Part shown: one piece after another, positions 24,582-42,958 of the stretch | How positions within the stretch are numbered: the first letter of the stretch is position 1 | Layout: every line of letters starts with the position of its first letter | Assembly: GCA_025998755.1 (NCBI GenBank) | Contig: AP024674.1 | Location: 876,467 to 940,466 of the forward strand | Direction: 5' to 3' | DNA from: Armatimonadota bacterium | GTDB taxonomy: Bacteria > Armatimonadota > UBA5829 > DSUL01 | Length of the DNA: 64,000 bases | Notes under the pieces: model-generated | Seen by the model: the letters and a program-made list of their open reading frames with translations, nothing else | What the model was told of the DNA's origin: nothing | Databases searched by the model: none | Translations under genes and position numbers: made by a program

Positions 24582-26249
24582 TCAGGACAGTCCCACTACC
24601 TGACCGTCCACCAACTGCATGTTCTCTGCCGCCGGCCGCGGCGGTAGGCCGGGCATTGTCATGATGGTACCGGTGTAGATGACCACGAAACCGGCCCCGG
24701 CGGAAACCCTGGCATCCCGGACTGTGAGCCGGAAGCCCGAGGGGCGTCCCAAAAGGAGAGGATCGTCCGAAAGGGAATTTTGGGTCTTCGCCATGCAGAC
24801 CGGCAACCCGCCAAAGCCCAGGCGGGTTATCAGCGCCAGCTTCTTTTCCGCTTCCAGCGTAAACACCACCCGGTCCGCTCCGTAAACCTGCTTGGCGATT
24901 GTTTCGACCTTCTCCTCAATGGGACGGTCCAGATCGTACAGGAATCGGAAGTGGGGTGGCCGGTTTGAAATGGTCGCCAGCACGGCTCGGGCCAGGTCTT
25001 CGGCTCCTTCGCCTCCGCGCTTCCAGTGGTCCGCCAGCGCAACGCATATTCCACGCTCCCGGCAGCGGTCCACCAACAGCGAAAGCTCTTCTTCTGAATC
25101 GGATTTGAACCTGTTGACCGCAACGACAGGGGGCACGCCGTGAAGCTCCACGTTCTCGCAGTGCTTCCAAAGGTTATCCAGCCCCCGCTCCAGCGCCGCC
25201 GTATCCGGTTGCGCCAGCCGATCCTTGGCGGCTCCCCCGTGCATCTTCAGAGCGCGCACCGTCGCCACCACCACCGCACACGCGGGAGTCAGGCTGGCCG
25301 TGCGGCACTTGATGTTGAAGAATTTTTCCGCCCCCAGATCGCTCCCGAACCCGGCCTCCGTGATTACATAATCCGCCAGCTTCAGGGCCAGCCGAGTGGC
25401 GATGACGGAGCTGCATCCGTGCGCTATGTTGCCGAATGGACCCCCGTGGACGAACGCCGGAGTCCCTTCCAGTGTCTGAACCAGGTTGGGCTTGATGGCA
25501 TCCCTGAGCAGCACGGCCATCGCCCCCGAGGCTTTCAGCGCCTCTGCGGTGACCGGGTTTCCCTGCCGGTCCAGGGCGACAACGATCCTGGCAAGACGCT
25601 GTTTCAGGTCCTCAAGGTCCGTGGCCAGGCACAGCAGGGCCATCACCTCGCTTGCGGTCGTAATGTCGAAGCCCGTCTGCCGGGGGAGGCCATTCGCCCG
25701 CCCCCCCAGGCCGGTCACGATCTCCCGCAGCGAGCGGTCGTTCATATCTATGACCCGGCGCCACATCACCTCGTAAGGGTCTATGTTGAAGGCGTCACCC
25801 CGGTGGATATGGTTGTCCAGGAGTGCGGACAGCAGGTTATGCGCCGATGTGATGGCGTGGAAATCGCCGTTGAAGTGCAGGTTGATGTCCACCATCGGGA
25901 TGACCTGCGCGTAGCCGCCGCCGGTGGCACCTCCTTTCAGCCCGAAGCACGGCCCCAGGCTCGGTTCCCGGATGGCGATGCATGCGGAGTGGCCCAGACG
26001 GCGCAGGGCGTCGCCGAGGCCGATGGTCGTCGTGGTCTTGCCTTCGCCCGCCGGTGTGGGGGTAATACCCGTCACGAGGATGAGCCTGCCGTCTGGGCGG
26101 TCCGCGAAGCGATGGATAGCATCCATCGTCACTTTGGCCTTTACCGGCCCGTAAAGCTCGATGTCTGTCTCCGCAAGGCCCAGACGCCCCGCTACCGCTG
26201 TAATCGGCTCGGGAACGGCCTGCTGGGCTATTTCAACGTCAGTCAGCAT
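24582..26249 (-). CDS. fhs: formate--tetrahydrofolate ligase
   Basis: Motifs PTPAGEGKTTTTIGL, EPSLGPCFGLKGGATGGGY, NLHFNGDFHAIT. Confidence 0.9.
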   Translation of the reverse strand: MLTDVEIAQQAVPEPITAVAGRLGLAETDIELYGPVKAKVTMDAIHRFADRPDGRLILVTGITPTPAGEGKTTTTIGLGDALRRLGHSACIAIREPSLGPCFGLKGGATGGGYAQVIPMVDINLHFNGDFHAITSAHNLLSALLDNHIHRGDAFNIDPYEVMWRRVIDMNDRSLREIVTGLGGRANGLPRQTGFDITTASEVMALLCLATDLEDLKQRLARIVVALDRQGNPVTAEALKASGAMAVLLRDAIKPNLVQTLEGTPAFVHGGPFGNIAHGCSSVIATRLALKLADYVITEAGFGSDLGAEKFFNIKCRTASLTPACAVVVATVRALKMHGGAAKDRLAQPDTAALERGLDNLWKHCENVELHGVPPVVAVNRFKSDSEEELSLLVDRCRERGICVALADHWKRGGEGAEDLARAVLATISNRPPHFRFLYDLDRPIEEKVETIAKQVYGADRVVFTLEAEKKLALITRLGFGGLPVCMAKTQNSLSDDPLLLGRPSGFRLTVRDARVSAGAGFVVIYTGTIMTMPGLPPRPAAENMQLVDGQVVGLS

Positions 26250-27735
26250 TGTCTCTCCCTGTTGCGCGGTCCTTCACAGATGTTTCCTGCGCTTCGACGC
26301 GGCGTCCTGCCTTTCGGGCACGGCCTGTCTTTGTATCGGGCTTCGAGAAAAGCTGCTTCAGCCAGAGCGGGGTGATCAACGTGGTGACGACCACCATGAC
26401 CACAATGGCGGAATAGATGGATGAGGAGATGACAGGCTCTCCGCCCAGCACAAGCGCGGCGCCTATGCTTGCGAAGATAAGCCCCACCTCCCCGCGGGGA
26501 ATCATTCCTACGCTGACGATCAGCCGGTTTACCCCCTTCTGAACGACTGCCAGCCCGCAGACCATCTTTCCAACAATGGCGGCGGCAACCAGAGCAGCGG
26601 CAAGCCCCAGAACGGAAACGTCACCGAAGGATCTCAGGTCCACGTGGAGACCCATTACCACGAAGAAGACAGGTACAAAGATGGCTCCCAGGGGCTGGAT
26701 CACCTCTTCCAGCGGGCGCTCTCCCCGGACGCGGAAGCGTTCGAAGTGCCGGGGCTCCAGAATAAGTCCGGCCGCGAATGCACCGACGATCGGAGCGAGG
26801 CCCACCAGACCGGCAAGCCCTGCAAGAACGAAACAAATGGACACACTGACCGCCAACATGACTCCGGGAACGCGCATTCCCGACATGAGATTCATCAGAG
26901 GACGCGCCGCGATGCTGCCCACTGCCAGCGCTGCCGCCAGAAACAGCGTAGCTTTTCCAAGGATAATCGCCACTTGCCCTATGGAGATTCCGCCGTCTCC
27001 ACCCCGGTTGGCCGCTGCGATGACGCCGCTGACTACTGCAAGCACCACCAGCCCCAGGACATCGTCAATGACCGCCGCCCCGAGGATGATTCGAGCTTCC
27101 TTCGTCTGCGTCTTGTTCAGGTCTTTCAGGACTCTGGCGGTGATGCCGACGCTCGTGGCACAGAGGGTCGCTCCCAGGAAGACATGCGCCAGCGGCAGTT
27201 CCTCTGGTAGAAGAAGGACACCGACGAAATAGCCGAGGACCATCGGCGCGACAACGCCGGCGACTGCCGCCAAAAGGGAACTGAAACCCACCTCCAGCAG
27301 ATCGCGCATCTTGGACTCAAGCCCGACCTCGAAAAGCAGCAAAATGACGCCCACCTGCGCCGCGATGTTCAGCGGAACACTTGTCTTCAGAATGTCAAAG
27401 GCGTGCCATCCCAGCAAGGAGAGGTTTCCCAAAACGACGCCGACAGCAAGCTCACCGAGGACCGCAGGCTGACCTTTTCTCTCCACCAACTCGGCCCCGA
27501 TCTTGGCAGCCACCAGCACCACCGCCAATTCCAGAAGAAGGGGCAGGATCTCACGCTCGGCCTCCCGGGTGGCTTCTTCCTCAGTCAGTGTATGCCCGTG
27601 CAGGGTCTGACTGTGCTCTGCTCCCCGAGACGCGGGAGGAGACGGGGTGGGACCGGAAATCACGTCAGCCCGCCCTGCTGCGGCGACGGCAAGCGCAGCA
27701 GCCGCCACGAGTAAAAAACGTCGCACCTTGGACAA
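26239..27735 (-). CDS. cation:proton antiporter (sodium/hydrogen exchanger family)
   Basis: Multi-TM protein with exchanger-type N-terminal helix (LLLELAVVLVAAKIGAELVERKGQPAVLGELAVGVVLGN); stop overlaps fhs start by 11 nt. Confidence 0.75.
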   Translation of the reverse strand: MSKVRRFLLVAAAALAVAAAGRADVISGPTPSPPASRGAEHSQTLHGHTLTEEEATREAEREILPLLLELAVVLVAAKIGAELVERKGQPAVLGELAVGVVLGNLSLLGWHAFDILKTSVPLNIAAQVGVILLLFEVGLESKMRDLLEVGFSSLLAAVAGVVAPMVLGYFVGVLLLPEELPLAHVFLGATLCATSVGITARVLKDLNKTQTKEARIILGAAVIDDVLGLVVLAVVSGVIAAANRGGDGGISIGQVAIILGKATLFLAAALAVGSIAARPLMNLMSGMRVPGVMLAVSVSICFVLAGLAGLVGLAPIVGAFAAGLILEPRHFERFRVRGERPLEEVIQPLGAIFVPVFFVVMGLHVDLRSFGDVSVLGLAAALVAAAIVGKMVCGLAVVQKGVNRLIVSVGMIPRGEVGLIFASIGAALVLGGEPVISSSIYSAIVVMVVVTTLITPLWLKQLFSKPDTKTGRARKAGRRVEAQETSVKDRATGRDNAD

Positions 27736-30716: not shown

Positions 30717-32792
30717 ATGTCCACCGGTGAGGCTGCCGGCACAAAGAAACCCAACCGCCTGGCGGGGGAGACAAGCCCTTATCTCTTGCAGCACGCGTTC
30801 AATCCCGTTGACTGGTATCCGTGGGGAGAGGAGGCGTTCCGCGCAGCACGTGAACGCGATGTTCCCATCTTCCTTTCCATCGGCTACAGCACCTGCCACT
30901 GGTGCCACGTGATGGAGCGGGAGAGCTTTGAGAACGAAGAGACTGCCCGGATCCTGAACGAACATTTCGTCAGCATCAAGGTGGACCGCGAGGAGCGGCC
31001 GGACATCGACGAAGTCTATATGCAGGCGGCGCAGCTCCTGACCGGTGCCGGCGGCTGGCCTCTGAGTGTCTTTCTGACCCCGGATCTGCGCCCCTTTTAC
31101 GCTGGTACCTATTTCCCCCCCATTGATGCCTACGGCCGGCCGGGATTTCCGCGATTGCTTCAGGCGATAGCTCAGGCCTACCGTGAGCGTAGAGAGGATG
31201 TCGAAGCTAGTTGCTCTGATCTGAGCCAGGCTATAGTCCAGTCTCTGACCGGGCTAGAGCGTCCCGGTGACGTTGGCCTCGGAACGGTGCGAGAGGCAGG
31301 CCGCGAGATCCTGTCCACGTTGGACCCAGTTTTCGGGGGCTTCGGGAGCGCCCCGAAGTTTCCACCATGCTTTGCGCTCCAGCTCCTGCTGCGAGAGTAT
31401 CACCGCTGCGGCGAAACTTCGTTCCTGGACGCAGTCTCGTTGACGTTGGACCGGATGACGCAGGGAGGCATTTTCGATCACATCGGCGGCGGATTCCATC
31501 GCTATTCCACCGATCGCCAGTGGTTGGTGCCGCACTTTGAGAAGATGCTTTACGACAACGCGCTCATCCCGCTCGTGCTATTGGAGGGGTGGCAGGTGAC
31601 AAAGCGCGAGCAGTGGGCGGAGGCCGCGGCGCGGACGCTAGACTTTGTGCTGCGCGAACTGACCGGTTCCCACGGCGGTTTCCTGAGCGCTCTGGATGCG
31701 GACAGTGAGGGCGAAGAGGGCAGGTTCTACGTATGGACACCCGAAGAGGTGAAATCTGCTCTCGGGGAACGCGATGGAGAGTTGTTTTGCCTTGCCTACG
31801 GCATAACGCCTGAGGGAAATTTCGAACACGGGCGCAGCATCCCCCACCTGCAGAAGGATCTGGAGACGCTTGCGAGTGAGCTTGGCCTGGACCCGGACGG
31901 ATTCAAGCGGGACATTGCGCGAATGCGAGAGATCCTTCTCAACATACGTTCGCGAAGAGTTCCTCCACACCTGGACGACAAGGTTAACGTTTCCTGGAAC
32001 GGGCTGATGATCCGCACCCTTGCATTCGCTGCGCGAGTATTGGACCGACCGGGTTATCTGGACGGGGCGCGCCGTGCGGCCTCGTTCATCCTCGATGAGG
32101 TTCTCACAGACGGCGGACTTGCTCACTCCTGGCGCGATGGCCGGGCCGCGTTGCCCGCTTTCCAGGAAGACTATGCTTGCCTGCTGTTGGGGCTTGTGGA
32201 ACTCTATCAGGCGGACTTCGATGTGCGCTGGCTAAACGAGGCTGAGCGCTTGGGCGATGAAATGATCTCTCTCTTCCTGGACCGGGAGGGTGGGGGGTTT
32301 TACTCATCGCGTAAGTCCCACGAAACCCCGCTGGTGCGAAGCAAAAGTCCAACCGATGGTGTGACGCCATCCGGCAACTCGGCGGCGGCTCTCGCGCTCG
32401 CACGGCTGGGGAGGCTGCTAGGTCGGCAGGATTTCCTGGAAATCGCCAATCAGACCGTTCAGACTTTCGGCCAAGCGGCAGCTCGCGCGCCCCGGGCATT
32501 CGAGCATCTGCTGATCGCTGTGGACTATCTGGAGACCCCCTCGCAGGAGATTGTGCTTGCAGGCGATCCGGATACCTCGGAGTGGGCGGATCTGCGCGCC
32601 GTTACGGGATCCCTGTTTCTGCCCTGGAGCGTGCTCGCCTTTGCCGCCGGAACAGAAGACGACCCCGCTCCTGCGCGCGGCAAAATGGCGTCGGATAGGC
32701 GCGCAACGGCTTATGTCTGCCGGGACTTTGCCTGCCGGGCCCCCGTGTGCACAGCCTCGGATCTGGAGGCAGCGCTGACCGCGAGGGATTAG
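30717..32792 (+). CDS. thioredoxin-domain protein (DUF255/YyaL family, AGE-like C-terminal domain)
   Basis: N-terminal [22 protein letters not shown]...[20 protein letters not shown] signature of DUF255 family. Confidence 0.8.
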
Positions 32793-33548: not shown

Positions 33549-34484
33549 TTGGACCCTGTCATCCTGTTTTTCATTCTCGGTCTGGCAGCCGGGGCTGCGA
33601 AGGCGGACCTTCGCCTGCCGCCGGCCATCTATGATTTCCTCAGCGCTTATCTTCTGCTGGCCATCGGGCTCAAGGGAGGAATCGAGCTGTCGACCCAGTC
33701 GCTCGGTCCACTCATCCCGAAAGTGATCGTGGTGATGTTTCTGGCCTCTCTTCTTCCTCTCCTGGCTTATCCGGTACTGCGCCTCTTGGGACGGCTGGGC
33801 CAGGCGGACGCGGCATCGGTCGCCGCGCATTACGGGTCCGTCAGCGTTGGCACGTATGCCGTCGCGGTGGCCTTTCTATCTGCGCGCAGCATGTCCCACG
33901 AGAGCTATATGCCCCTTTTTCTTGCCCTGATGGAGATGCCAGCCATTGTTGTCGGCATTCTTCTGGCCAGGGGGATCACACGGGAAGTGCGTTGGGGTCG
34001 CCTGTTGCATGAAGTGTTCCTTGGGAAAGCTGTTGTGCTGCTGAGTGGCGGGTTACTGATCGGATGGGCGGCAGGCCCTGATGGATTCTCGTCGCTGGAA
34101 GCGTTTTACGGTGGTCTTTTCCGCGGCCTGCTCAGTCTGTTTCTGCTGGAGATGGGACTGCTCTGCGCCGGCCAAATCGGGGCGCTCCGAGGGGTGGGGG
34201 CGTTCCTTGTGGCATTCGGCATCCTGACGCCGGTGGTGTTTGGCCTGCTGGGATGTGCGGCGGGCACGCTGTTGATGAACCTGTCCGCAGGCGGTGCTGC
34301 GCTGCTTGGTGTACTGGCCGCCAGCGCATCGTATATCGCGGTGCCTGCAGCGATGCGCATCTCCGTTCCCGAGGCCAATCCGGCCATCTCGCTGGCGGCA
34401 GCACTGGGAGTTACGTTTCCGTTCAATGTCACCCTAGGAATACCCCTCTACGTTCGAATGGCGCAGTGGATGGCACGGTTCTAG
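33549..34484 (+). CDS. sbtA: sodium-dependent bicarbonate transporter family permease (SbtA/DUF897)
   Basis: N-terminus DPVILFFILGLAAGAAKADLRLPPAIYDFLSAYLLLAIGLKGG matches SbtA family; ~10 TM; TTG start with ggagcggg RBS. Confidence 0.75.
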   Translation: MDPVILFFILGLAAGAAKADLRLPPAIYDFLSAYLLLAIGLKGGIELSTQSLGPLIPKVIVVMFLASLLPLLAYPVLRLLGRLGQADAASVAAHYGSVSVGTYAVAVAFLSARSMSHESYMPLFLALMEMPAIVVGILLARGITREVRWGRLLHEVFLGKAVVLLSGGLLIGWAAGPDGFSSLEAFYGGLFRGLLSLFLLEMGLLCAGQIGALRGVGAFLVAFGILTPVVFGLLGCAAGTLLMNLSAGGAALLGVLAASASYIAVPAAMRISVPEANPAISLAAALGVTFPFNVTLGIPLYVRMAQWMARF

Positions 34485-34496
34485 GAAGGATTATCA

Positions 34497-34799
34497 GTGA
34501 GCACATTCCAGGCCAAACTTGTCACAATCATCACCGAGGCTCTTTTGGAAGAGGAGCTGACGCAGCGCCTTGTGGAGCTTGGGGCCACAGGCTACACCAT
34601 CTCGGATACGCGAGGGAGGGGGCATCGGGGCATCCGAGACGCCGGTTGGGAGCACGGCGCAAATATCCGCGTGGAGGTTCTCTGCGAGGAAGAGGTGGCC
34701 CGGCGCATCGCGGCGTTCCTTGTTGAGAACTATTACAGAGACTATGCAATGGTCGTTTTCATAGACACTGTGGAGGTTCTCCGTGAAAACCGTTTCTGA
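34497..34799 (+). CDS. sbtB: PII-like signalling protein SbtB
   Basis: 100-aa PII fold signature ([39 protein letters not shown]); GTG start 12 nt after sbtA stop. Confidence 0.75.
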
Positions 34800-35319
34800 A
34801 CAGGCCGCCACTGAATCCTCCGGCGTCCAGCCCCTCGTGGGCGTGATCATGGGCTCCAAATCGGACTGGGAGACTATGCGCCACGCATCAGAGACTCTGG
34901 AGCGGCTAGGGGTGCCGCACGAGGTCCGCGTGGTGTCCGCCCACAGAACGCCCGATGAGATGCGCCGCTATGCTACTGAGGCAAAGGCAAGAGGACTTCA
35001 GGTCATCATCGCCGGCGCGGGCGGGGCGGCCCATCTGCCGGGAATGACGGCTGCGTTCACCACGCTGCCCGTGCTGGGCGTCCCCGTTCAGACCAGCGCA
35101 CTGAACGGCATGGACTCGCTGCTTTCCATCGTCCAGATGCCCGGCGGCATCCCCGTTGGAACACTGGCGATCGGCAGGGCAGGGGCGGTGAATGCCGCTC
35201 TCCTGGCGGCGGCCATTCTGGCGCTTACACGCCGCGAGCTTCAAAGCAGGCTGGAAGAGCTGCGCGAACAGACAGCCCGCGAGGTGCTATCGTGTCCGGA
35301 TCCTCGCCTCCCCGGGTGA
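34783..35319 (+). CDS. purE: 5-(carboxyamino)imidazole ribonucleotide mutase
   Basis: Motifs [38 protein letters not shown]; GTG start overlaps sbtB 3' end by 17 nt. Confidence 0.9.
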
Positions 35320-36401
35320 GAACGGTCGGTATTCTTGGCGGGGGGCAGTTGGCCAGGATGTTGGCTCTGGCCGGCATTCCTCTGGGGCTGCGCTTCGTGT
35401 TCGCTTCTCCTCAGCCCGGAGAGTGCGCCTTCGAACTGGGCCGAGCCGTCGTAGCGGACTGGCGCAGCTTGGAGTCGGAACCAGGTGTTCTGGAGGAGGC
35501 AGATGTCGTCACTTGGGAATTCGAGAATATCTCGCTGCGCGCGTTGAGGCGGCTGCAGAAAATTCTGCCGGTGTTTCCCTCCCCGGAGATTCTGGCCGTC
35601 AAGCAAGATAGACTGCGGGAAAAGGAGGTATTCCGAAGCCTTGGCATTCCCACGGCGGATTTCGTGCCTGTAGATACTATTGAGGATGCGAGCCGAGCTT
35701 TTGAGATCCTCGGCAACCCGCTGGTGCTGAAGACGCGATCTCACGGGTATGACGGCAAGGGCCAGGTGGTGGCAAAGGATTTCGTGGATCTCGAACAAGC
35801 GGTCTCGCGCGGTGGGCATCTTCTGGCGGAGCAATTCGTGCAGTTCGATCGCGAACTCTCAGTGGTGGGCGTGAGAACGACCGATGGATGCCACAGCTTC
35901 TATCCCGTGACGGAAAACATCCACAGAGAAGGGATCCTCAGGGTATCGCGCTGCCGGCCAGACGATCCGAAATGGGGCGAGGCAACGGAATATACCCGGC
36001 GTTTGATGGATTACTTTGGCTACACAGGAGTGCTGGCGATCGAGTTTTTTGAGAAGGACGGCGGGCTGTTGGCGAACGAGTTTTCTCCCCGCGTTCATAA
36101 CACCGGCCACTGGACCATTGAAGGTGCGGAGACAAGTCAGTTCGAGAATCACTTGCGGGCTGTGGTGGGGTGGGAGCCGGGCAGCACCGCTCCCGTTGCC
36201 AGTGCCGCGATGGTGAACTGCATTGGACACCTGCCGGCCCCGGAAGATGTTGCCCGGATTCCCGGTGCGCACCTCCATATTTACGGAAAGGCGATCCGGC
36301 CGCGCCGGAAGGTGGGGCACGTAACCGTTCGAGCGGAGTCCCAGGCGGTGTTGGAGGAACGCCTGCAAGCAGTCGGCCGCCTGCTCAATGAGGCGATATA
36401 G
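35292..36401 (+). CDS. purK: N5-carboxyaminoimidazole ribonucleotide synthase
   Basis: ATP-grasp enzyme with [15 protein letters not shown]-terminus; overlaps purE by 28 nt. Confidence 0.85.
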
Positions 36402-36473: not shown

Positions 36474-36549
36474 TGGTGGAGCTGAGCGGATTCGAACCGC
36501 CGACCTCTTCCGTGCGAAGGAAGCGCTCTCCCAACTGAGCCACAGCCCC
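36474..36549 (-). tRNA. tRNA-Ala (anticodon CGC)
   Basis: Reverse complement GGGGCTGTGGCTCAGTTGGGAGAGCGCTTCCTTCGCACGGAAGAGGTCGGCGGTTCGAATCCGCTCAGCTCCACCA folds as cloverleaf: G3:U70 Ala identity pair, anticodon loop TTCGCAC, T-loop TTCGAAT, encoded CCA. Confidence 0.9.
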
Positions 36550-36728: not shown

Positions 36729-38171
36729 CTACTCACCTTGGCCGAGAGTGAACCCGGGCTCTCCATCATAAGAATACAGGTTTTCCGTTTTGATGATATC
36801 AAGCCCGGCATCCGTCAGGCATCCCAGAAGCTCCAGACATTTTCGGTAGCTTTCGGCCGACTGGTGGAAGCGGAACCGGCATCTCCAGTGGTCAGTGCAG
36901 AAAGTCTCGGGCAGACCCTCAGGATACACCTTCACACCTCGGTTGGTGATCAGCGACAGCTCGGTTCCGGGTGGGGCGGCGGCAAGCAGCTTGCTCGCAA
37001 GGGTCTCCGCATTCCGGCCCGCTTCATTCCAGAACAGGAAGACATCTATCCCCACCAGTTCCCGCACTGCGGCGGACGGATGGGAAAGCGAGACAGCCAC
37101 CGGCGTATTGCGATACTGGACAGGGGTAAGCTTTCTCGGTTCCTTTCCCAGTCTTGCAATCACTGCGTCGGCGAACGCTGCGGTTCCAACTTCATCCGCA
37201 CTCAGGCCCACTCTGTAGATATCCGGGGTGTGGATACCATCCTCAATCGTACAGAGCCAGGCGTTTTTAACGGTCTGGGCGGTTTCGCCCAGGCCCAGAT
37301 GAACCAGCATCTGGGTTGCGGCGATCAACAGCCCCGATGGATTGGCTACACCCCGGCCTGCAATATCCGGAGCGGAGCCGTGCACCGCCTCGAACATGGC
37401 CGCCTGCTCTCCGATGTTGGCTGACGCGGCAAGTCCGATGGAGCCTGTCAGTTGAGCCGCGATGTCTGAAAGGATATCCCCATACAGGTTGAGCGTCACG
37501 ATGACATCAAATGTCTCGGGGCTTGCCGCCAGCCGGGCAGAGCCGATGTCAATGATCATGTGATCGCTTTCGATGTCCGGGTACTCCGTGGAGATCTCGT
37601 CGAACACCCGATGAAACAGGCCGTCCGTGAGCTTCATGATGTTGTCTTTCGTCATACAGGTGACACGGCGGCGGCCAAAGGCGCGGGCATATTCGAAAGC
37701 GAAGCGGACGATCTTTTCGCATCCGGGCCGCGATACCAGCTTCAGAACCTGGGTGACCTCGGGGGTCTGTCGGTGCTCGATCCCGGCGTACAGGTCCTCT
37801 TCATTCTCCCGGATAATAACTAGGTTCATCCCCGGGTGAGGGGATGCAATGAAGGGGCTATACGCCTTGCACGGCCTGACGTTAGCGAACAGATTCAGGG
37901 TCTTGCGGATCGTGACATTGACGCTCTTGAAGCCCTTTCCCTGAGGCGTTGTCACAGGGCCTTTCAGCAGACACCCGGCGGCTCGGATCTTGTCCCAGGC
38001 ATCGGGGGATACGCCCGAAGTGATGCCGCGGCGATAGACGCTCTCGCCGAGCTCCAGAAAATCGTAATCCAGAGGAGCATCGGCCGCGTCCAGAATCCGC
38101 AGCACGGCTTCCGTGATCTCCGGGCCGATGCCATCACCGGGCGCCACCACACACCTTTTCCTGTCGCTCAT
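36729..38171 (-). CDS. isocitrate dehydrogenase (isocitrate/isopropylmalate dehydrogenase family, with ~130-aa C-terminal extension)
   Basis: Motifs VVAPGDGIGPEI, NLFANVRP, CMTKDNIMKLTDGLF, NLYGDILSDIAAQLTGSIGLAASANIG. Confidence 0.7.
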   Translation of the reverse strand: MSDRKRCVVAPGDGIGPEITEAVLRILDAADAPLDYDFLELGESVYRRGITSGVSPDAWDKIRAAGCLLKGPVTTPQGKGFKSVNVTIRKTLNLFANVRPCKAYSPFIASPHPGMNLVIIRENEEDLYAGIEHRQTPEVTQVLKLVSRPGCEKIVRFAFEYARAFGRRRVTCMTKDNIMKLTDGLFHRVFDEISTEYPDIESDHMIIDIGSARLAASPETFDVIVTLNLYGDILSDIAAQLTGSIGLAASANIGEQAAMFEAVHGSAPDIAGRGVANPSGLLIAATQMLVHLGLGETAQTVKNAWLCTIEDGIHTPDIYRVGLSADEVGTAAFADAVIARLGKEPRKLTPVQYRNTPVAVSLSHPSAAVRELVGIDVFLFWNEAGRNAETLASKLLAAAPPGTELSLITNRGVKVYPEGLPETFCTDHWRCRFRFHQSAESYRKCLELLGCLTDAGLDIIKTENLYSYDGEPGFTLGQGE

Positions 38172-38308
38172 GACGATACTCTTCCTTTTATCTTGATAGT
38201 TAGAATTCCTGAAAAGCTTAGGCCCTCATCAGGCCGGCGTCGACAGCAGTAAACGCTTTCCTGCCGCTCCTTTGTTCCGAGAGACGGCACAGAGCAAGCC
38301 GGAGGACT

Positions 38309-39769
38309 TCATCCGAGGAACCGTCTGCGCAGAGCAGCCTGCAAAAGAAGATCGGCGACCTTGGCAGTCTGACCGGCTTCAAGCGACTCGCAGATCCTGC
38401 GCGTCAGCAGCACGTGCTCCTCGTCGGGCTCCCATTTCAGCCCGGCGTGCACGACTGCAGCCTGCAGATCCTGCGTCAGGAACGGGCTTTCCGGATCGGT
38501 GTAACGCAGCGCATCCGTCAGCTTCGCGCGGAACGAGGGATAGACGGAATCGAGGAACTCCAGATCCCGATCGCTTAACGACTCAAGTCCGAGGAGCTCC
38601 GGAGGGCAACCCAGGGAATACAGTGCGCAGGTGAAGGAGATGGCCCGCGGCAAGCTCACTCCGTCCAGTTCCCGCGCATATCCGAACAGTCCTATGTGGA
38701 GCTTGCGTGCCCGCCGTGGCGGAACGAATCTTGCTACCGCGTTAATGGACGGAGCAAGCTGGACGACCCGGCGGCGGTAAGCGCTGCTGTACGCCTGGAT
38801 GAGTGCCTGGGCGCGTCCCGGATCCACGGGAACGGGGGCTCCAATGGTTCTGTCTTTCAGAAAGGCGCAGGCTTGGCTTACCTCGGACACAGGATAATCG
38901 AACTTGAATGCTGACTGAATGGTGAAGGTCACCACGCTGGGATACTCCGCGCTGACGCGCTCCACCGTGCGCGGGCTAAGGCCGCCCCGGAACGGCGCTG
39001 AACCCATGCCTATGATAGGGCACAGGGGAATTCCTCTCTTCTGGCCAGTTTCATACAGTTGCTGCAGGGCCACCTTGTTGGCGAGCGCTGCGGCGGCCAG
39101 ACCGTAGTTCATCGCGGTGTCGGATCGCGCAAGGAACACCCGCTGATACTCCACATCCTTCCCGTCCAGATATTCCGTCAGGATTTCGCCGGCCCTGAGC
39201 ATTGTGGGAATGTCCTCAAACAGCGGGATGACATTGATTCGCGCCGGCCCAAAGTCACCGATCCACTGCGCCACCGTGATGTCCCCTTCTCGCACCGGCC
39301 TAAGCTGCCGCGCAATGATGAAGTCTTCGTAGTATTTGAAGACTCGGTTCAGGCAGCCAGCGGAGGTGGTCATAGGGAGGATCACCTCGAAGATCGGCGG
39401 TGGGGCGTCATCCCCGTAAAAGGCCCGGGCGGCGTCGAAAGACCGCGGAATGCTTTCCAGCGTCTCCAGGAGAATCTTGGCCTCGGCGCGCTCAACGGAC
39501 GGGTTCGGCACGCGAACAGTGAGCCGTAGATCCCGCCCCAGCACGTTCTGCCGGAAGAACTCCGGATAGAACGTGAGAAGTTTTTTCACCACGTGCGGGT
39601 CAATCTCTTTTCCCTCGACGTCCCACATCTGCTCATCGCAACCCAGATGCGAGTAGCAGTAGAACGCCTCGCGGATCTCGTCTTCTCCTGCCAGGACGGG
39701 GGAGGATGCGAAGAAGGGAACAGAAGCGTTATCGGGGTGTTGCGTGCTCATGCACCGCGAAACATTCAT
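38309..39769 (-). CDS. phosphoenolpyruvate carboxylase, archaeal type (PepcA-like)
   Basis: Hallmark N-terminus MSTQHPDN; ~500 aa; ATG 39769 preceded by ggag; ORF-track start 39832 treated as extension. Confidence 0.75.
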   Translation of the reverse strand: MNVSRCMSTQHPDNASVPFFASSPVLAGEDEIREAFYCYSHLGCDEQMWDVEGKEIDPHVVKKLLTFYPEFFRQNVLGRDLRLTVRVPNPSVERAEAKILLETLESIPRSFDAARAFYGDDAPPPIFEVILPMTTSAGCLNRVFKYYEDFIIARQLRPVREGDITVAQWIGDFGPARINVIPLFEDIPTMLRAGEILTEYLDGKDVEYQRVFLARSDTAMNYGLAAAALANKVALQQLYETGQKRGIPLCPIIGMGSAPFRGGLSPRTVERVSAEYPSVVTFTIQSAFKFDYPVSEVSQACAFLKDRTIGAPVPVDPGRAQALIQAYSSAYRRRVVQLAPSINAVARFVPPRRARKLHIGLFGYARELDGVSLPRAISFTCALYSLGCPPELLGLESLSDRDLEFLDSVYPSFRAKLTDALRYTDPESPFLTQDLQAAVVHAGLKWEPDEEHVLLTRRICESLEAGQTAKVADLLLQAALRRRFLG

Positions 39770-40062
39770 CGTGAACAATCTCCAGAAGGGGCGTGCGTAT
39801 TTGTGGCACCAGCGCAGTTCAGGGACGGTCAATCACGGCAGTATACCCCGAAAGAAAGCGTCCTGGTGTCCAGCGGAGAACCTGTCACCGGCGAAGCAGT
39901 GCACACCGGGGCAGGTTGTTGCGGCGTATGACGTGATTGAAATCCGCCCTTGCGAGCAGTGGAGGAGGAAGGCGGCTGGGCAGTGGAGGGCCCAAATTTG
40001 TGCTGGGGGACGAGCGAGGTAAGCTGATAGCCAAACTTTTTGAAATCCCTACGGAAAAAGTC

Positions 40063-40091
40063 TTGCGAGGCAGCAAAAGATATGTTACTCT
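40063..40091 (+). promoter_or_regulatory. candidate sigma70-type promoter of the glycan locus
   Basis: TTGCGA (40063-40068), 17-nt spacer, TACTCT (40086-40091), directly upstream of the palindromic operator. Confidence 0.3.
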
Positions 40092-40093
40092 GA

Positions 40094-40115
40094 GGTGTGG
40101 GAGCGCTCCCACACC
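40094..40115 (+). promoter_or_regulatory. perfect 22-bp palindrome, LacI-family operator candidate
   Basis: ggtgtgggagc|gctcccacacc; core GTGGGAGCGCTCCCAC resembles the symmetric lac operator TGTGAGCGCTCACA; half-site tgtgggagc repeated at 40117-40125; 30 nt upstream of the first gene of the locus. Confidence 0.45.
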
Positions 40116-40144
40116 CTTGTGGGAGCAGAGAAGGAGAGGGCCGT

Positions 40145-42958
40145 ATGCTCCGTGCTACGGCCCCGGAAGCGATGTGGCGTATTCTGCTGGTCGCCATAGT
40201 GGCAGCAGCGCCGTGCGGACCTCTAGCCGCCGCACTGCTGGCGAATGCCGGGTTCGAGGCCGGAGACGGAGCCACGCCTCCAGATCCCCTTTACTGGACA
40301 GAGTACGGTCCGGACCTGACCGGCGAACGCTCTTCTGTCTTCAAGCGCTTGGGAGGATGGGCGGCAAAGCGTTGGACGGGCGGCGACCATCAGGAGTACG
40401 GATATTATCAGGACTTCCCGGCGATCCCGGGCAGAGAGTATCGTCTTGCCGCCTGGCTTCACAGCCCGCCCTCGGACGCGCTGTCTGGCTCCAGCTATGC
40501 GTGTCTGAAACTCGAGTTCCTGTCACCAGGCGGCGCGATGCTGCTCCAACGGGAGAGCCTCCGTCTCACCTCATCCAACGCTGGGTTCGAGGAGTATCTG
40601 GTCACAGCGGTGGCACCTCCGGGGGCCACAAAAGGTCGGGTGGTCTACGCTGTAGGCGCGGGTGCCGCACCGCACGGCGGTGCGGCCTACTGCGACGACG
40701 TCACGCTCGAAGATCTGGGACCGCTGCCCACATCCGACGACGCGTTGCTGGAAGAGCTCCAGAAAAGGGCCTTCCGTTTCTTCTGGGACGAGGCAGGGCC
40801 GCTGGGGCTCATTAAAGACCGGGCAGGCAACTTCCGGCAAGACCGATACCAGCACTCCAGCATCGCATCCGTGGGATTTGGGCTGGCGGCGATCTGCGTG
40901 GCCGAGGGGCGGGGCTGGGTGTCACGGGAGCAGGCTCGTCAGCGCATCGCGCTGACGCTGGATACCCTGGCTACGAAGGTTCCCAGGCAGCACGGATTCT
41001 TGCCCCATTTCCTGGATGCACGAACCGGGCAGCCATCCCCGGGAACGGAATACTCCGCCATTGATACGGCAATCCTGCTCTACGGAGCGCTGTTTGCCGG
41101 GTCCTGGTTCGAGGATCGATACGGAGACGCTTCCATTCGGGAGGCGGCTGAGGCTCTGTACCACGCAGTCCAATGGCCTGTTCTGCATTCGGGCAGCACC
41201 GTTTACAGCGAATACTGGATGATGGATCTGCTGGCCATCGGCTCGCCAACATATCCGCTCCCGCCCTCCGTGTGGAACGCGTTCAGCCGCAACTTCCAGG
41301 ACAATCTGGCCACGCGCCCGGCCGACCGGTCATATCCCAGGTTTTTCTACCCGGTGCTGTTTGTGCACCAGTATCCGCAGCTTTTCCTGGATATGCGGTT
41401 CCGGCGCGACGTCCATACTGTGGACTTGACCTATTTCGAGAGCACCCGGAACCACACTTTTTCGAACAGGCAGTACTGCATTGATCACTCCGTGTCCGCC
41501 GGGTTTGCGCATCCCCGCTTCCAGACCTACTCGGAGCATTGTTGGGGACTGACCGCCGGGGATGGCCCGGACGGATACCGGGACTATGGCGAGGCGCTTC
41601 CCTGGCTGCCGGAGCCGCAGAGCACCTGGCTTCTGGACGGGACCGTCCTGCCGCACGCCGCCGGTGGGTCTGTGGCCTTCGCTCCAGAGGTCTGTATCCC
41701 TGCGCTGCGCCGGATGGCGCAGACATATGGACACCGCATCTGGGGGCGTTACGGTTTTTCGGATGCCTTCAACGTGGACCGGAACTGGTGGGCGGAAGAT
41801 GTCATCGGTATAGACCTGGGCGCCATATTCCTGAGCATCGAGAACTATCGCAGTGGCGGCATCTGGCGGTGGACGATGCGAATCCCAGCCATCCGCCGCG
41901 CGCTGGCGCGGACGGGGTTCGTCGACGAGCGGCAGGCCGCGGTGGAGGATTTCGACTCCGCACCTCTTGGGGTCTGGGGATCCGGTTGCGAGAGCGATTG
42001 GGGAACGGGACACCTGTCATATGAGGAAATCGGGAGCACAGGCCAACTGCCAGGCGGCCGCGTTGCACGAATAACGGCGAGTGTGGCTGGAGGCGGAGCT
42101 GGAATCTGTCTTGGGTCGCTGGATTTGACCTACGCTGACGTCTTGAGCTTCTTCATCCGCGGGCAACGGGGTGGGGAGCGCATCACTCTGGTGCTGCGCG
42201 ATTGCGATGGACGGGAATCTGCCGTTGCGCTGACGGAGGAGCACCTATGGCAGCGCAGCATAGGCACGGACTGGCAGACTGTTTCTGTGCCGCTCAGCGC
42301 TTTCGACGGCATCCGCAGACCGTGCGCAGAGCGGCTGGCATTCCTGCTGCAGGAACCGGGGTCGGTCTGGGTTGACGGAGTGGCGTTCACCGGTGCGCAT
42401 CCAGATGCTCCGGCCGTGCCACTCCCCAGTCCCGGTTATGTGCGCAACCTTCCTCCCGGAGTATCTGTCACTCTCGAAAACCTTGTCGTAACGGACGACT
42501 TCGGAGCGTTTTTCTACGCCGCTCGGCCGGATCGCGCATCAGGAATACGCATTCAGCCGGGCGGCGGCTTCACGCCGGGGGAGCGCATTTCAGTCCGTGG
42601 AACCGTGGGGAGTGCAGATGAGGAGCCGGCGGTCTTCGCGACAGCGGTCTCCCGGCAGGGCAGGGTGTTGCCCCTTGAGCCGGTCGGGATGAAGTTGGCT
42701 GGTATAGGCAATAACCGCCCCGATCCCCTGGGACTGCGGGTTCGCTCCTGGGGTCAGGTGTCCGGTCTCGAACAGGATGGATTCCGTCTCCGGGACGGTT
42801 CCGGACGGGAGCTGGCGGTCGTCGCGCCCTCTCTTCCGAAGCCGGCTCCCGGAGCATTTGTCATTGTCACAGGTGTCGCGGGGCGCCGGGTTGCAGCGCA
42901 GGGTCCCCAACCGGTGCTGCGAATCCGGTCTCCGTGGGACATTGAGGTAGTGCAGTAG
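40145..42958 (+). CDS. secreted multi-domain glycoside hydrolase: N-terminal carbohydrate-binding module + (alpha/alpha)6 GH144/DUF3131-like catalytic domain (putative endo-beta-1,2-glucanase)
   Basis: Signal peptide (WRILLVAIVAAAPCGPLAAALLA); CBM4/9-like segment (NAGFEAGDG...YCDDVTLE); catalytic-domain motifs HGFLPHFLD and YGFSDAFNVDRNWWAEDVIGIDLGAIFLSIENYRSGG; ATG 40145 preceded by aaggagagg. Confidence 0.65.
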   Translation: MLRATAPEAMWRILLVAIVAAAPCGPLAAALLANAGFEAGDGATPPDPLYWTEYGPDLTGERSSVFKRLGGWAAKRWTGGDHQEYGYYQDFPAIPGREYRLAAWLHSPPSDALSGSSYACLKLEFLSPGGAMLLQRESLRLTSSNAGFEEYLVTAVAPPGATKGRVVYAVGAGAAPHGGAAYCDDVTLEDLGPLPTSDDALLEELQKRAFRFFWDEAGPLGLIKDRAGNFRQDRYQHSSIASVGFGLAAICVAEGRGWVSREQARQRIALTLDTLATKVPRQHGFLPHFLDARTGQPSPGTEYSAIDTAILLYGALFAGSWFEDRYGDASIREAAEALYHAVQWPVLHSGSTVYSEYWMMDLLAIGSPTYPLPPSVWNAFSRNFQDNLATRPADRSYPRFFYPVLFVHQYPQLFLDMRFRRDVHTVDLTYFESTRNHTFSNRQYCIDHSVSAGFAHPRFQTYSEHCWGLTAGDGPDGYRDYGEALPWLPEPQSTWLLDGTVLPHAAGGSVAFAPEVCIPALRRMAQTYGHRIWGRYGFSDAFNVDRNWWAEDVIGIDLGAIFLSIENYRSGGIWRWTMRIPAIRRALARTGFVDERQAAVEDFDSAPLGVWGSGCESDWGTGHLSYEEIGSTGQLPGGRVARITASVAGGGAGICLGSLDLTYADVLSFFIRGQRGGERITLVLRDCDGRESAVALTEEHLWQRSIGTDWQTVSVPLSAFDGIRRPCAERLAFLLQEPGSVWVDGVAFTGAHPDAPAVPLPSPGYVRNLPPGVSVTLENLVVTDDFGAFFYAARPDRASGIRIQPGGGFTPGERISVRGTVGSADEEPAVFATAVSRQGRVLPLEPVGMKLAGIGNNRPDPLGLRVRSWGQVSGLEQDGFRLRDGSGRELAVVAPSLPKPAPGAFVIVTGVAGRRVAAQGPQPVLRIRSPWDIEVVQ

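What the first reader, a model, noticed from the sequence alone, without database searches (positions are those of the whole stretch)
36729..39769. Archaeal-type PEP carboxylase and isocitrate dehydrogenase beside the bicarbonate operon
The PEPC begins with the MSTQHPDN hallmark of the short archaeal-type enzyme rather than the ~900-aa bacterial Ppc. It is a bicarbonate-fixing anaplerotic enzyme, and it sits with a CO2-releasing IDH directly downstream of sbtAB-purEK. The clustering of bicarbonate-consuming functions around a bicarbonate transporter is notable.
Basis: partly seen in the sequence, partly recalled or inferred. Interest (0 to 1): 0.5.

Follow-up and report, generated by a model that had tools for sequence, protein, structure and literature searches.

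The report
Ordinary PEP carboxylase and isocitrate dehydrogenase genes
The interval holds two correctly identified but ordinary, already-annotated central-metabolism genes of an Armatimonadota bacterium, which lie next to a widely conserved bicarbonate-transporter/purine operon without being part of it.

Summary
Both gene calls are right. 38309-39769(-) is a 486-aa archaeal-type PEP carboxylase: TIGR02751 scores 573 bits against a cutoff of 146, while the bacterial Ppc model scores 20 bits against a cutoff of 815. 36729-38171(-) is a 480-aa Thermus-type isocitrate dehydrogenase. Both are 100% identical to annotated proteins of an Armatimonadota MAG.

"Archaeal-type" is only a family name. At least 592 species carry the family, most of those listed being bacteria, and this copy sits in an all-bacterial clade.

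The genes are not "directly downstream" of sbtAB-purEK. They run PEPC-IDH-tRNA-Ala on the minus strand, converging on that plus-strand operon.

sbtA-PII-purE-purK is the conserved unit. purE lies beside sbtA in 9 of 80 metagenome loci (0.1-0.3 expected), and purE (with purK in two) in 3 of 4 of the closest relatives from other phyla. None of these has PEPC or IDH.

Close relatives have lost either IDH or sbtAB at this locus.

The bicarbonate-cluster idea keeps some support. A Bacillota MAG has PEPC-purE-purK-sbtA-mpsC-PII on one strand. A marine clade has pycAB-sbtA-PII, one locus with purEK as well. With one independent PEPC case, this is not significant.

Verdict: known enzymes, a sensible but non-obligatory neighbourhood, low interest.

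The parts
38309..39769 (-). Archaeal-type (atPEPC/PepcA) phosphoenolpyruvate carboxylase, 486 aa
   Evidence: PF14010 601 bits and TIGR02751 573 bits (cutoff 146). PDB 3odm E 4e-37. 100% identical to an NCBI 'phosphoenolpyruvate carboxylase [Armatimonadota bacterium]'. Motifs QHPDN, FED, SDTAM and GSAPFRGG are invariant or nearly so in 22 homologues.
38172..38308 (-). 137-nt PEPC-IDH spacer; no terminator, promoter or known RNA detected; only the IDH ribosome-binding site (AAAGGA) is conserved
   Evidence: (fold z-score -0.57).
36729..38171 (-). Isocitrate dehydrogenase, 480 aa, Thermus/TIGR02924 type with a C-terminal domain; carries an Asp-Ile (NAD-type) cofactor motif, HGSAPDIAG
   Evidence: NF006673 714 bits, TIGR02924 644 bits, PF00180 plus PF18324. 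2d1c 417 bits, with KY in Thermus where this protein has DI. The motif is present in 119 of the 120 best homologues.
36474..36549 (-). tRNA-Ala(CGC), last gene of the minus-strand unit; separates IDH from the end of purK
   Evidence: ARAGORN and Rfam RF00005 66.5 bits. Conserved at the same place in L082, L085 and L088.
33549..34484 (+). Context: Sbt_1-family (SbtA-like) putative Na+/HCO3- permease, first gene of the convergent operon
   Evidence: PF05982 375 bits. Named 'sodium-dependent bicarbonate transport family permease' by NCBI.
34497..34799 (+). Context: P-II-like (SbtB-like) protein, 100 aa
   Evidence: PF00543 79.5 bits. A P-II gene follows sbtA in 60 of 80 metagenome loci by tblastn, and 7 further P-II matches appear in the Pfam census.
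34783..35319 (+). Context: purE (N5-CAIR mutase)
   Evidence: TIGR01162 223 bits.
35292..36401 (+). Context: purK (N5-CAIR synthetase, HCO3- and ATP dependent)
   Evidence: NF004679 402 bits, TIGR01161 348 bits.

Best explanation
Two housekeeping genes of a carbohydrate-degrading Armatimonadota bacterium are transcribed leftwards as PEPC, IDH, tRNA-Ala.

The 486-aa archaeal-type PEPC carboxylates PEP with HCO3- to give oxaloacetate, which is anaplerosis. The 480-aa Thermus-type IDH oxidatively decarboxylates isocitrate to 2-oxoglutarate. Its Asp-Ile motif predicts that it uses NAD+.

Together they open and close the oxidative branch oxaloacetate -> citrate -> isocitrate -> 2-oxoglutarate, which supplies the aspartate and glutamate families.

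They converge on, but are not part of, a four-gene operon, sbtA-PII-purE-purK. That operon is conserved as a unit across phyla and most plausibly supplies HCO3- to PurK.

PEPC draws on the same cytoplasmic HCO3- pool, so the position is metabolically sensible. It is nevertheless best explained as lineage-specific synteny rather than as a dedicated module.

Shown: gene identities, orientation, conservation patterns. Inferred: enzyme activities, cofactor choice, transport substrate, co-transcription of PEPC and IDH.
For: - Identities.
- Both proteins are already annotated in NCBI on one 3.29-Mb Armatimonadota contig.
- The units are convergent, with a tRNA gene between them.
- The whole roughly 20-kb region is syntenic in relatives whose PEPC is 80-92% identical (glycoamylase, PEPC, purK, purE, DUF255, GH130). 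L088 lacks IDH. L085-L087 lack sbtAB and keep 29-33-aa remnants of SbtA and P-II, which indicates a secondary deletion.
- PEPC-centred loci from 80 other species: IDH is adjacent in 1 (L008, a non-orthologous IDH type) and sbtA in 1 (L036). Between 0.2 and 0.5 hits are expected by chance for any single-copy gene.
- SbtA-centred loci: PEPC 0 of 80, IDH 0 of 80, purE 9 of 80.
- Closest SbtA relatives in Planctomycetota, Tectimicrobiota and an unnamed MAG carry sbtA-PII-purE, with purK in the two named MAGs and without it in the unnamed one; none has PEPC or IDH.
- The window context is heterotrophic: GH94, GH130, glycoamylases.
Against: - A Bacillota MAG (L036), whose PEPC belongs to a different clade, has PEPC-purE-purK-sbtA-mpsC-PII co-directionally.
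- A marine clade has pycA-pycB-sbtA-PII, and one locus (L128) also has purE-purK. That is a non-homologous anaplerotic carboxylase in the same position.
- purE lies within 10 kb of PEPC in 3 of 80 loci (P about 0.001-0.015). carB, another HCO3- user, abuts PEPC in 9 of 80 loci, mostly Chloroflexota.

These hints suggest that selection may sometimes favour placing an anaplerotic carboxylase beside DIC-supply genes.
Confidence: 0.72

Rival explanations
1. Bicarbonate supply-and-demand supercluster. PEPC is kept beside sbtA-PII-purE-purK by selection, because the transporter feeds both HCO3--dependent enzymes (PurK and PEPC). Co-localisation would aid co-inheritance or co-regulation at low CO2. 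IDH is a passenger.
For: - The adjacency is retained across the Armatimonadota lineage down to 80% PEPC identity.
- L036 shows an independent co-directional PEPC-purEK-sbtA-mpsC-PII cluster.
- L128 has pycAB-sbtA-PII-purEK, and seven related loci have pycB beside sbtA-PII.
- A beta-carbonic anhydrase neighbours sbtA in 5 of 80 loci.
- PEPC, PurK and pyruvate carboxylase all use HCO3- (PMC10880623).
Against: - The units are on opposite strands with a tRNA gene between them.
- PEPC is absent from all 80 SbtA-centred loci and from the 4 nearest cross-phylum sbtA loci.
- One independent PEPC case in 80 loci is within chance.
- Conservation within the lineage is matched by unrelated flanking genes, so it reflects plain synteny.
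- L085-L087 deleted sbtAB and kept PEPC-IDH-purEK.
Confidence: 0.22
2. Recent horizontal acquisition from Archaea. The short PEPC would be an archaeal import replacing a canonical bacterial Ppc.
For: The family was first defined in Archaea (Ettema 2004, cited in PMC8100219). The PEPC tree does not follow phylum boundaries, so transfers have occurred. A second Armatimonadetes MAG (L068) has a copy only 55-56% identical, in another clade.
Against: - The window clade sits inside an exclusively bacterial clade (62-68% identity). Archaeal copies are 52-57% identical and fall in a separate mixed clade.
- GC content across 36-40 kb is 0.60, against 0.59-0.64 elsewhere in the window.
- PEPC diverges in step with its neighbours among relatives.
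Confidence: 0.03
3. Both enzymes fix inorganic carbon. IDH would run reductively (2-oxoglutarate + CO2 -> isocitrate) as part of a reductive TCA-type pathway fed by the transporter.
For: IDH is reversible in rTCA organisms (PMC10880623, Table 1).
Against: No rTCA marker genes appear in the window or in syntenic loci, and the context is sugar catabolism. The NAD-type motif fits a catabolic enzyme. IDH is dispensable at the locus. SbtA supplies HCO3-, whereas IDH would use CO2.
Confidence: 0.03

Closest known systems
Archaeal-type PEP carboxylase (atPEPC/PepcA; TIGR02751, PF14010), e.g. Clostridium perfringens PepcA (PDB 3odm) and the Sulfolobus/Methanothermobacter enzymes
   Same: Full-length equivalog match, roughly 490-aa size, the conserved QHPDN / FED / SDTAM / GSAPFRGG motifs, and no bacterial-Ppc regulatory regions.
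   Different: Nothing structural. It belongs to a large bacterial subclade, only 131 bits to 3odm but 65-68% identical to copies in Actinomycetota, Desulfobacterota, Hydrogenedentota and Chloroflexota.
Thermus thermophilus isocitrate dehydrogenase (PDB 2d1c) / NCBIfam NF006673 and TIGR02924
   Same: Same two-part architecture (PF00180 plus the PF18324 C-terminal domain), aligned over the full length at 417 bits.
   Different: The cofactor-discriminating dipeptide is Asp-Ile (HGSAPDIAG) rather than the Lys-Tyr of the NADP-dependent Thermus enzyme. The same holds in 119 of the 120 best homologues, so this subclade is probably NAD-dependent despite the 'NADP-dependent' label that NCBI gives many members. 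The reading of Asp-Ile versus Lys-Tyr rests on my knowledge of E. coli IDH K344/Y345 and of IPMDH, not on a test here.
Cyanobacterial sbtA-sbtB bicarbonate transporter pair; DIC 'toolkits' reviewed in PMC10880623
   Same: Sbt_1 permease followed by a small P-II gene. SBT-family permeases have been noted in heterotrophic SAR11 genomes alongside carbonic anhydrase and anaplerotic enzymes (PMC10030771).
   Different: Here the pair heads an operon with purE-purK in a heterotroph. I found no paper describing that linkage or a PEPC link. Transport of HCO3- by this 311-aa subfamily is inferred, not shown.
Two-subunit pyruvate carboxylase pycA-pycB with a divergent LysR regulator
   Same: A functional analogue of PEPC, an HCO3--dependent route to oxaloacetate. 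It lies directly upstream of sbtA-PII in 8 of 80 metagenome loci, and one of these (L128) also has purEK.
   Different: A non-homologous, biotin-dependent enzyme that is co-directional with sbtA. The window's PEPC is convergent.

Membership tests
Archaeal-type PEPC (TIGR02751 / PF14010) | Full-length match to the curated equivalog model above its cutoff | tested here: met
   TIGR02751 573 bits against a cutoff of 146, residues 3-486 on model positions 1-506. PF14010 601 bits.
Archaeal-type PEPC (TIGR02751 / PF14010) | Short subunit (55-60 kDa class), not the 90-110 kDa bacterial/plant enzyme (PMC8100219) | tested here: met
   486 aa. The bacterial Ppc model NF000584 gives 19.9 bits against a cutoff of 815, aligning only to residues 176-263.
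Archaeal-type PEPC (TIGR02751 / PF14010) | Conserved catalytic motifs (N-terminal QHPD His, acidic metal-site residues, Gly/Arg-rich loop) | tested here: met
   Q10 H11 P12 D13 N14, E185 D186, S216 D217 T218 and G256 A258 P259 F260 R261 G262 G263 are invariant in 22 homologues of 65-100% identity. Assignment of catalytic roles rests on my knowledge of bacterial and plant PEPC, not on a test here.
Archaeal-type PEPC (TIGR02751 / PF14010) | Sequence homology to a solved archaeal-type PEPC | tested here: met
   3odm_A, E 4e-37, aligned over query residues 4-367 and 372-423. It is the only PDB hit.
Archaeal-type PEPC (TIGR02751 / PF14010) | PEP + HCO3- -> oxaloacetate activity, homotetramer, competitive aspartate inhibition | not testable with these tools
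   Needs enzyme assays.
Isocitrate dehydrogenase, NF006673 / TIGR02924 type | Scores above the curated cutoffs of both equivalog models, with the PF00180 plus PF18324 architecture | tested here: met
   714 bits (cutoff 509) and 644 bits (cutoff 561). PF18324 132 bits at residues 370-480.
Isocitrate dehydrogenase, NF006673 / TIGR02924 type | NADP dependence, as in the model's name and in Thermus 2d1c (Lys-Tyr after HGSAP) | tested here: not met
   The window has HGSAPDIAG where 2d1c has HGSAPKYAG. 119 of the 120 best homologues share DI. This predicts NAD+ use. An assay is needed to confirm it.
sbtA-PII-purE-purK operon (is PEPC/IDH part of it?) | Same strand and contiguous with the operon | tested here: not met
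   Opposite strand and convergent, with tRNA-Ala between.
sbtA-PII-purE-purK operon (is PEPC/IDH part of it?) | Co-occurrence with the operon in other lineages | tested here: not met
   PEPC 0 of 80 and IDH 0 of 80 in SbtA-centred loci. 0 of 4 in the nearest cross-phylum relatives. The single exception, found from the PEPC side, is L036.
sbtA-PII-purE-purK operon (is PEPC/IDH part of it?) | Co-expression with the operon | not testable with these tools
   No transcript data are available.

The most novel reading that the evidence does not exclude
In heterotrophic bacteria the SbtA/P-II pair may be the core of a recurrent 'bicarbonate economy' gene neighbourhood. It would recruit whichever HCO3--dependent enzymes limit growth in air. 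PurK is the usual partner. An anaplerotic carboxylase is an occasional one: archaeal-type PEPC in Armatimonadota and a Bacillota MAG, and two-subunit pyruvate carboxylase in a marine clade. A beta-carbonic anhydrase also occurs. On this reading PEPC's position in the window is selected, and the P-II protein may tune HCO3- import to the demand of these enzymes.
Probability: 0.22. Interest if true: 0.45.

Novelty: already known. Interest (0 to 1): 0.18.

Why it matters
For PEPC and IDH themselves it matters little. Both belong to well-described families, and both are already correctly named in the public record of this genome.

The useful by-products are three:
1. The conserved unit next door is sbtA-PII-purE-purK. 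This gives a concrete, testable role, feeding PurK, for SbtA-like transporters in non-photosynthetic bacteria.
2. Anaplerotic carboxylases of two unrelated kinds occasionally join that unit.
3. A large IDH subclade that is often labelled 'NADP-dependent' carries the NAD-type signature, which affects metabolic models built from annotation.

Tried and rejected
- Presence of a canonical ppc or pyc elsewhere in the genome could not be tested.
- The foundational atPEPC papers (PMC524890, PMC3092815) are not held. The motif-to-function mapping therefore rests on my own knowledge.
- Promoter and terminator scans found nothing informative around PEPC-IDH.
- The fold of the 137-nt spacer is not different from shuffled sequence (z -0.57).
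- Rfam found only the tRNA.
- The spacer is poorly conserved among relatives apart from the ribosome-binding site. Co-transcription of PEPC and IDH therefore remains undecided.
This was corrected.
- L013 (purE 2 kb from PEPC) was examined. purE there sits with purD, with hisG lying between it and PEPC, so the proximity is likely coincidental.
- L054 has purK-purE 7 kb from PEPC, which is not adjacent.
- Recent archaeal HGT was rejected on the tree. That tree is neighbour-joining on BLOSUM distances with no support values, so it shows only the broad split.
- No structure prediction was run. Membership is unambiguous from sequence.
Full report
**What is there**

The interval 36729-39769 contains two minus-strand ORFs.

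The upstream one, 38309-39769, encodes 486 aa beginning MNVSRCMSTQHPDN.
- It matches Pfam PEPcase_2 end to end (601 bits) and the NCBIfam equivalog for archaeal-type PEPC, TIGR02751 (573 bits, cutoff 146).
- The model for the roughly 900-aa bacterial Ppc gives 19.9 bits against a cutoff of 815.
- Its only solved relative is the Clostridium perfringens archaeal-type PEPC 3odm (E 4e-37).
- The motifs QHPDN, FED, SDTAM and GSAPFRGG are invariant or nearly so across 22 homologues.
- The start at 39769 agrees with the homologue consensus MxxIPRCMSTQHPDN. The longer TTG ORF (39832) is not supported.

The downstream ORF, 36729-38171, encodes 480 aa. It is an isocitrate dehydrogenase of the Thermus/TIGR02924 type: NF006673 714 bits (cutoff 509), PF00180 plus the PF18324 C-terminal domain, and 417 bits to 2d1c.

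Both proteins are 100% identical to NCBI entries from one 3.29-Mb Armatimonadota MAG contig, already named 'phosphoenolpyruvate carboxylase' and 'isocitrate dehydrogenase'.

**Layout**

On the plus strand lie Sbt_1 (33549-34484), a 100-aa P-II protein (34497-34799), purE (34783-35319) and purK (35292-36401). They are tightly packed or overlapping.

PEPC and IDH are on the other strand and point towards purK. A tRNA-Ala(CGC) gene at 36474-36549(-) lies between IDH and purK. The pair is therefore adjacent to the operon and convergent with it, not 'directly downstream' of it.

The 137-nt PEPC-IDH spacer shows the following:
- no predicted terminator or promoter;
- no Rfam element;
- no unusual fold;
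- no conservation in relatives apart from the IDH ribosome-binding site.

Co-transcription of the two genes is plausible but not shown.

The wider window encodes GH94, GH130, glycoamylases, SUF proteins, formate-THF ligase and a Na+/H+ exchanger. This is a heterotroph's repertoire.

**Is 'archaeal-type' remarkable here?**

No.
- More than 3,700 homologues scored E<=1e-20. Those 65-68% identical come from Electrothrix, Coriobacteriia, Chloroflexota, Actinomycetota and Sedimentisphaerales, among others.
Most of the best 80 are bacterial.
- In a neighbour-joining tree of 87 sequences, the window and its three closest relatives form one clade inside an all-bacterial group.
- Archaeal sequences (52-57% identity) fall in a second, mixed clade. 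That clade also holds Dehalococcoidia, another Armatimonadetes MAG (L068) and the Bacillota locus L036.
- The tree does not track phyla, so transfers among bacteria have happened. Nothing points to a recent archaeal import.
- GC content is unremarkable.
- Reviews already state that the archaeal-type enzyme occurs in several bacteria (PMC8100219).

**Is the neighbourhood meaningful? View from the PEPC side**

Among 80 PEPC loci from other species (about 1.03 Mb of flanks in total), the results were as follows.
- The window's IDH type is never adjacent. One Anaerolineales MAG (L008) has carB-PEPC-IDH, with a non-orthologous E. coli-type NADP-IDH.
- sbtA is present once. L036, a Bacillota MAG, reads aldehyde:ferredoxin oxidoreductase - PEPC - purE - purK - Sbt_1 - MpsC - P-II - 2-oxoacid:ferredoxin oxidoreductase subunits, all on one strand.
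- purE lies within the flanks in three loci (L013, L036, L054). In L013 it belongs with purD, with hisG lying between it and PEPC, and in L054 it is 7 kb away.
- carB abuts PEPC in nine loci, mostly Chloroflexota.

For any single-copy gene, 0.2-0.5 chance hits are expected in these flanks. One sbtA and one IDH are therefore not significant. Three purE hits are marginal (P about 0.001-0.015). Nine carB hits are significant, but the loci are phylogenetically clustered.

**View from the SbtA side**

In 80 metagenome loci centred on relatives of the window's SbtA:
- A P-II gene follows in 60 by tblastn, with 7 more P-II matches in the Pfam census.
- purE is immediately adjacent in 9, with purK in 7. 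Between 0.1 and 0.3 are expected.
- PEPC and IDH are adjacent in none.

The four closest SbtA relatives outside the lineage that I inspected (66-68% identical) read as follows:
- sbtA-PII-purE-purK in a Tectimicrobiota MAG and a Planctomycetota MAG;
- sbtA-PII-purE in an unnamed MAG;
- sbtA-PII alone in a Gemmatimonadales MAG.

The conserved, cross-phylum unit is therefore sbtA-PII-purE-purK. PurK is the HCO3-- and ATP-dependent step of AIR carboxylation (PMC10880623), which gives the operon an obvious rationale.

The census also found:
- beta-carbonic anhydrase in 5 loci;
- LysR regulators in 9 loci;
- pyruvate carboxylase subunit B in 4 loci.

tblastn raised the pyruvate carboxylase subunit B count to 8, all from one clade sharing 74-89% identity. 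One of these, L128, reads LysR | pycA-pycB-sbtA-PII-purE-purK.

**Natural experiments in close relatives**

Contigs whose PEPC is 92%, 83% and 80% identical share the whole roughly 20-kb gene order: glycoamylases, PEPC, tRNA-Ala, purK, purE, a 175-aa hypothetical, DUF255, GH130. Conservation of the PEPC/purEK adjacency within the lineage is thus ordinary synteny.
- The 80% relative (L088) has no IDH between PEPC and tRNA-Ala.
- The 83% relatives (L085-L087) have no sbtA or P-II. They keep a 29-aa SbtA fragment and a 33-aa P-II fragment abutting purE, the signature of a secondary deletion.

Neither IDH nor the transporter is needed for the rest of the locus to persist.

**Most likely function**

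PEPC supplies oxaloacetate from PEP and HCO3-. IDH produces 2-oxoglutarate. Together they bracket the oxidative branch that feeds aspartate- and glutamate-family biosynthesis.

Pairing of the two recurs once with a different IDH type (L008). That hints at a weak functional link between them, not a link to bicarbonate.

PEPC shares the cytoplasmic HCO3- pool with PurK. L036 and the pycAB-sbtAB(-purEK) loci show that an anaplerotic carboxylase can join the transporter cluster. For this locus the evidence favours coincidental, lineage-specific juxtaposition (confidence about 0.7) over a selected supercluster (about 0.2).

**A side observation on IDH**

The dipeptide after HGSAP is Asp-Ile, where the NADP-dependent Thermus enzyme has Lys-Tyr. 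All but one of the 120 best homologues share Asp-Ile, although NCBI names many of them 'NADP-dependent'.

From established work on E. coli IDH (K344/Y345) and on IPMDH and NAD-IDH (Asp-Ile), which is my own knowledge, this predicts NAD+ specificity.

**Verdict**

The gene identifications are correct. The layout description is partly wrong. The HGT and novelty implication is unsupported. The functional-cluster idea is weakly supported for PEPC and unsupported for IDH. The enzymes are already known and already annotated. Interest is low (0.18).

The most novel surviving reading is a recurrent heterotrophic 'bicarbonate economy' neighbourhood around SbtA/P-II that sometimes recruits an anaplerotic carboxylase. 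I give it a probability of about 0.22 and moderate interest if true.

Noticed in passing
window 33549-36401 (+); L170, L172, L169, L090, L101, L110, L118, L128: sbtA-PII-purE-purK is a conserved cross-phylum operon. purE is adjacent to sbtA in 9 of 80 metagenome loci, against 0.1-0.3 expected, and in 3 of the 4 nearest relatives from other phyla. This suggests the transporter's main client in heterotrophs is PurK. I found no paper describing it.
   Followed up: partly
window 37290-37320 region of the IDH gene (motif HGSAPDIAG); P0241-P0360: The IDH and 119 of its 120 best homologues carry the NAD-type Asp-Ile signature, where the NADP-dependent Thermus IDH has Lys-Tyr. NCBI nevertheless labels many of them 'NADP-dependent'. 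This is a probable systematic mis-annotation of cofactor.
   Followed up: partly
window 36474-36549 (-): A tRNA-Ala(CGC) gene sits between the convergent purK and IDH genes. It is conserved in relatives L082, L085 and L088. IDH presence or absence varies immediately next to it.
   Followed up: yes
L085 15161-15259, L086 15162-15345, L087 15161-15344: Relatives whose PEPC is 83% identical have deleted sbtA and most of the P-II gene. They leave 29-aa (L086, L087) and 33-aa (all three) remnants fused upstream of purE. This is a natural knockout of the transporter with purEK, PEPC and IDH retained.
   Followed up: yes
L036 4551-12000 (+), Bacillota MAG DAHVYW010000023: A co-directional cluster: PEPC - purE - purK - Sbt_1 - MpsC-like - P-II, followed by 2-oxoacid:ferredoxin oxidoreductase subunits. 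An MpsC-family gene, known from the Staphylococcus Mps DIC system, is inserted between sbtA and P-II.
   Followed up: partly
L128 3584-10985; also L104, L120, L124, L127, L131, L134, L135: LysR | pycA-pycB-sbtA-PII(-purE-purK): a two-subunit pyruvate carboxylase directly upstream of the transporter pair, in one clade of aquatic metagenome contigs (PycB 74-89% identical).
   Followed up: partly
L008, L018, L046, L048, L054, L061, L064, L067, L073: carB (carbamoyl-phosphate synthase large subunit, another HCO3- user) lies immediately beside archaeal-type PEPC in 9 of 80 loci, mostly Dehalococcoidia and other Chloroflexota. This could reflect aspartate plus carbamoyl-phosphate supply for pyrimidines, or shared bicarbonate use.
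   Followed up: no
L010 11486-13540, L016 2799-4853; window 30717-32792: A DUF255/thioredoxin-domain gene (44% identical to the window's) is convergently adjacent to PEPC in two Coriobacteriia MAGs, and lies 5.5 kb from PEPC in the window. The reason is unknown.
   Followed up: no
window 39770-40145 versus L084 2508-3521 and L085 8830-9846: Relatives carry a PARG_cat_C (poly-ADP-ribose glycohydrolase-like) gene between the glycoamylase and PEPC. The window has only a roughly 375-bp gap there.
   Followed up: no
window 26239-27735 (-): A Na+/H+ exchanger gene lies about 6 kb from the putatively Na+-coupled SbtA and is syntenic in relatives. It could maintain the Na+ gradient, but there is no evidence of linkage beyond synteny.
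   Followed up: no
L089-L168 neighbours of sbtA: A beta-carbonic anhydrase (Pro_CA) is an immediate neighbour of sbtA/P-II in 5 of 80 loci, a LysR regulator in 9 and a glutaminase in 3.
   Followed up: no
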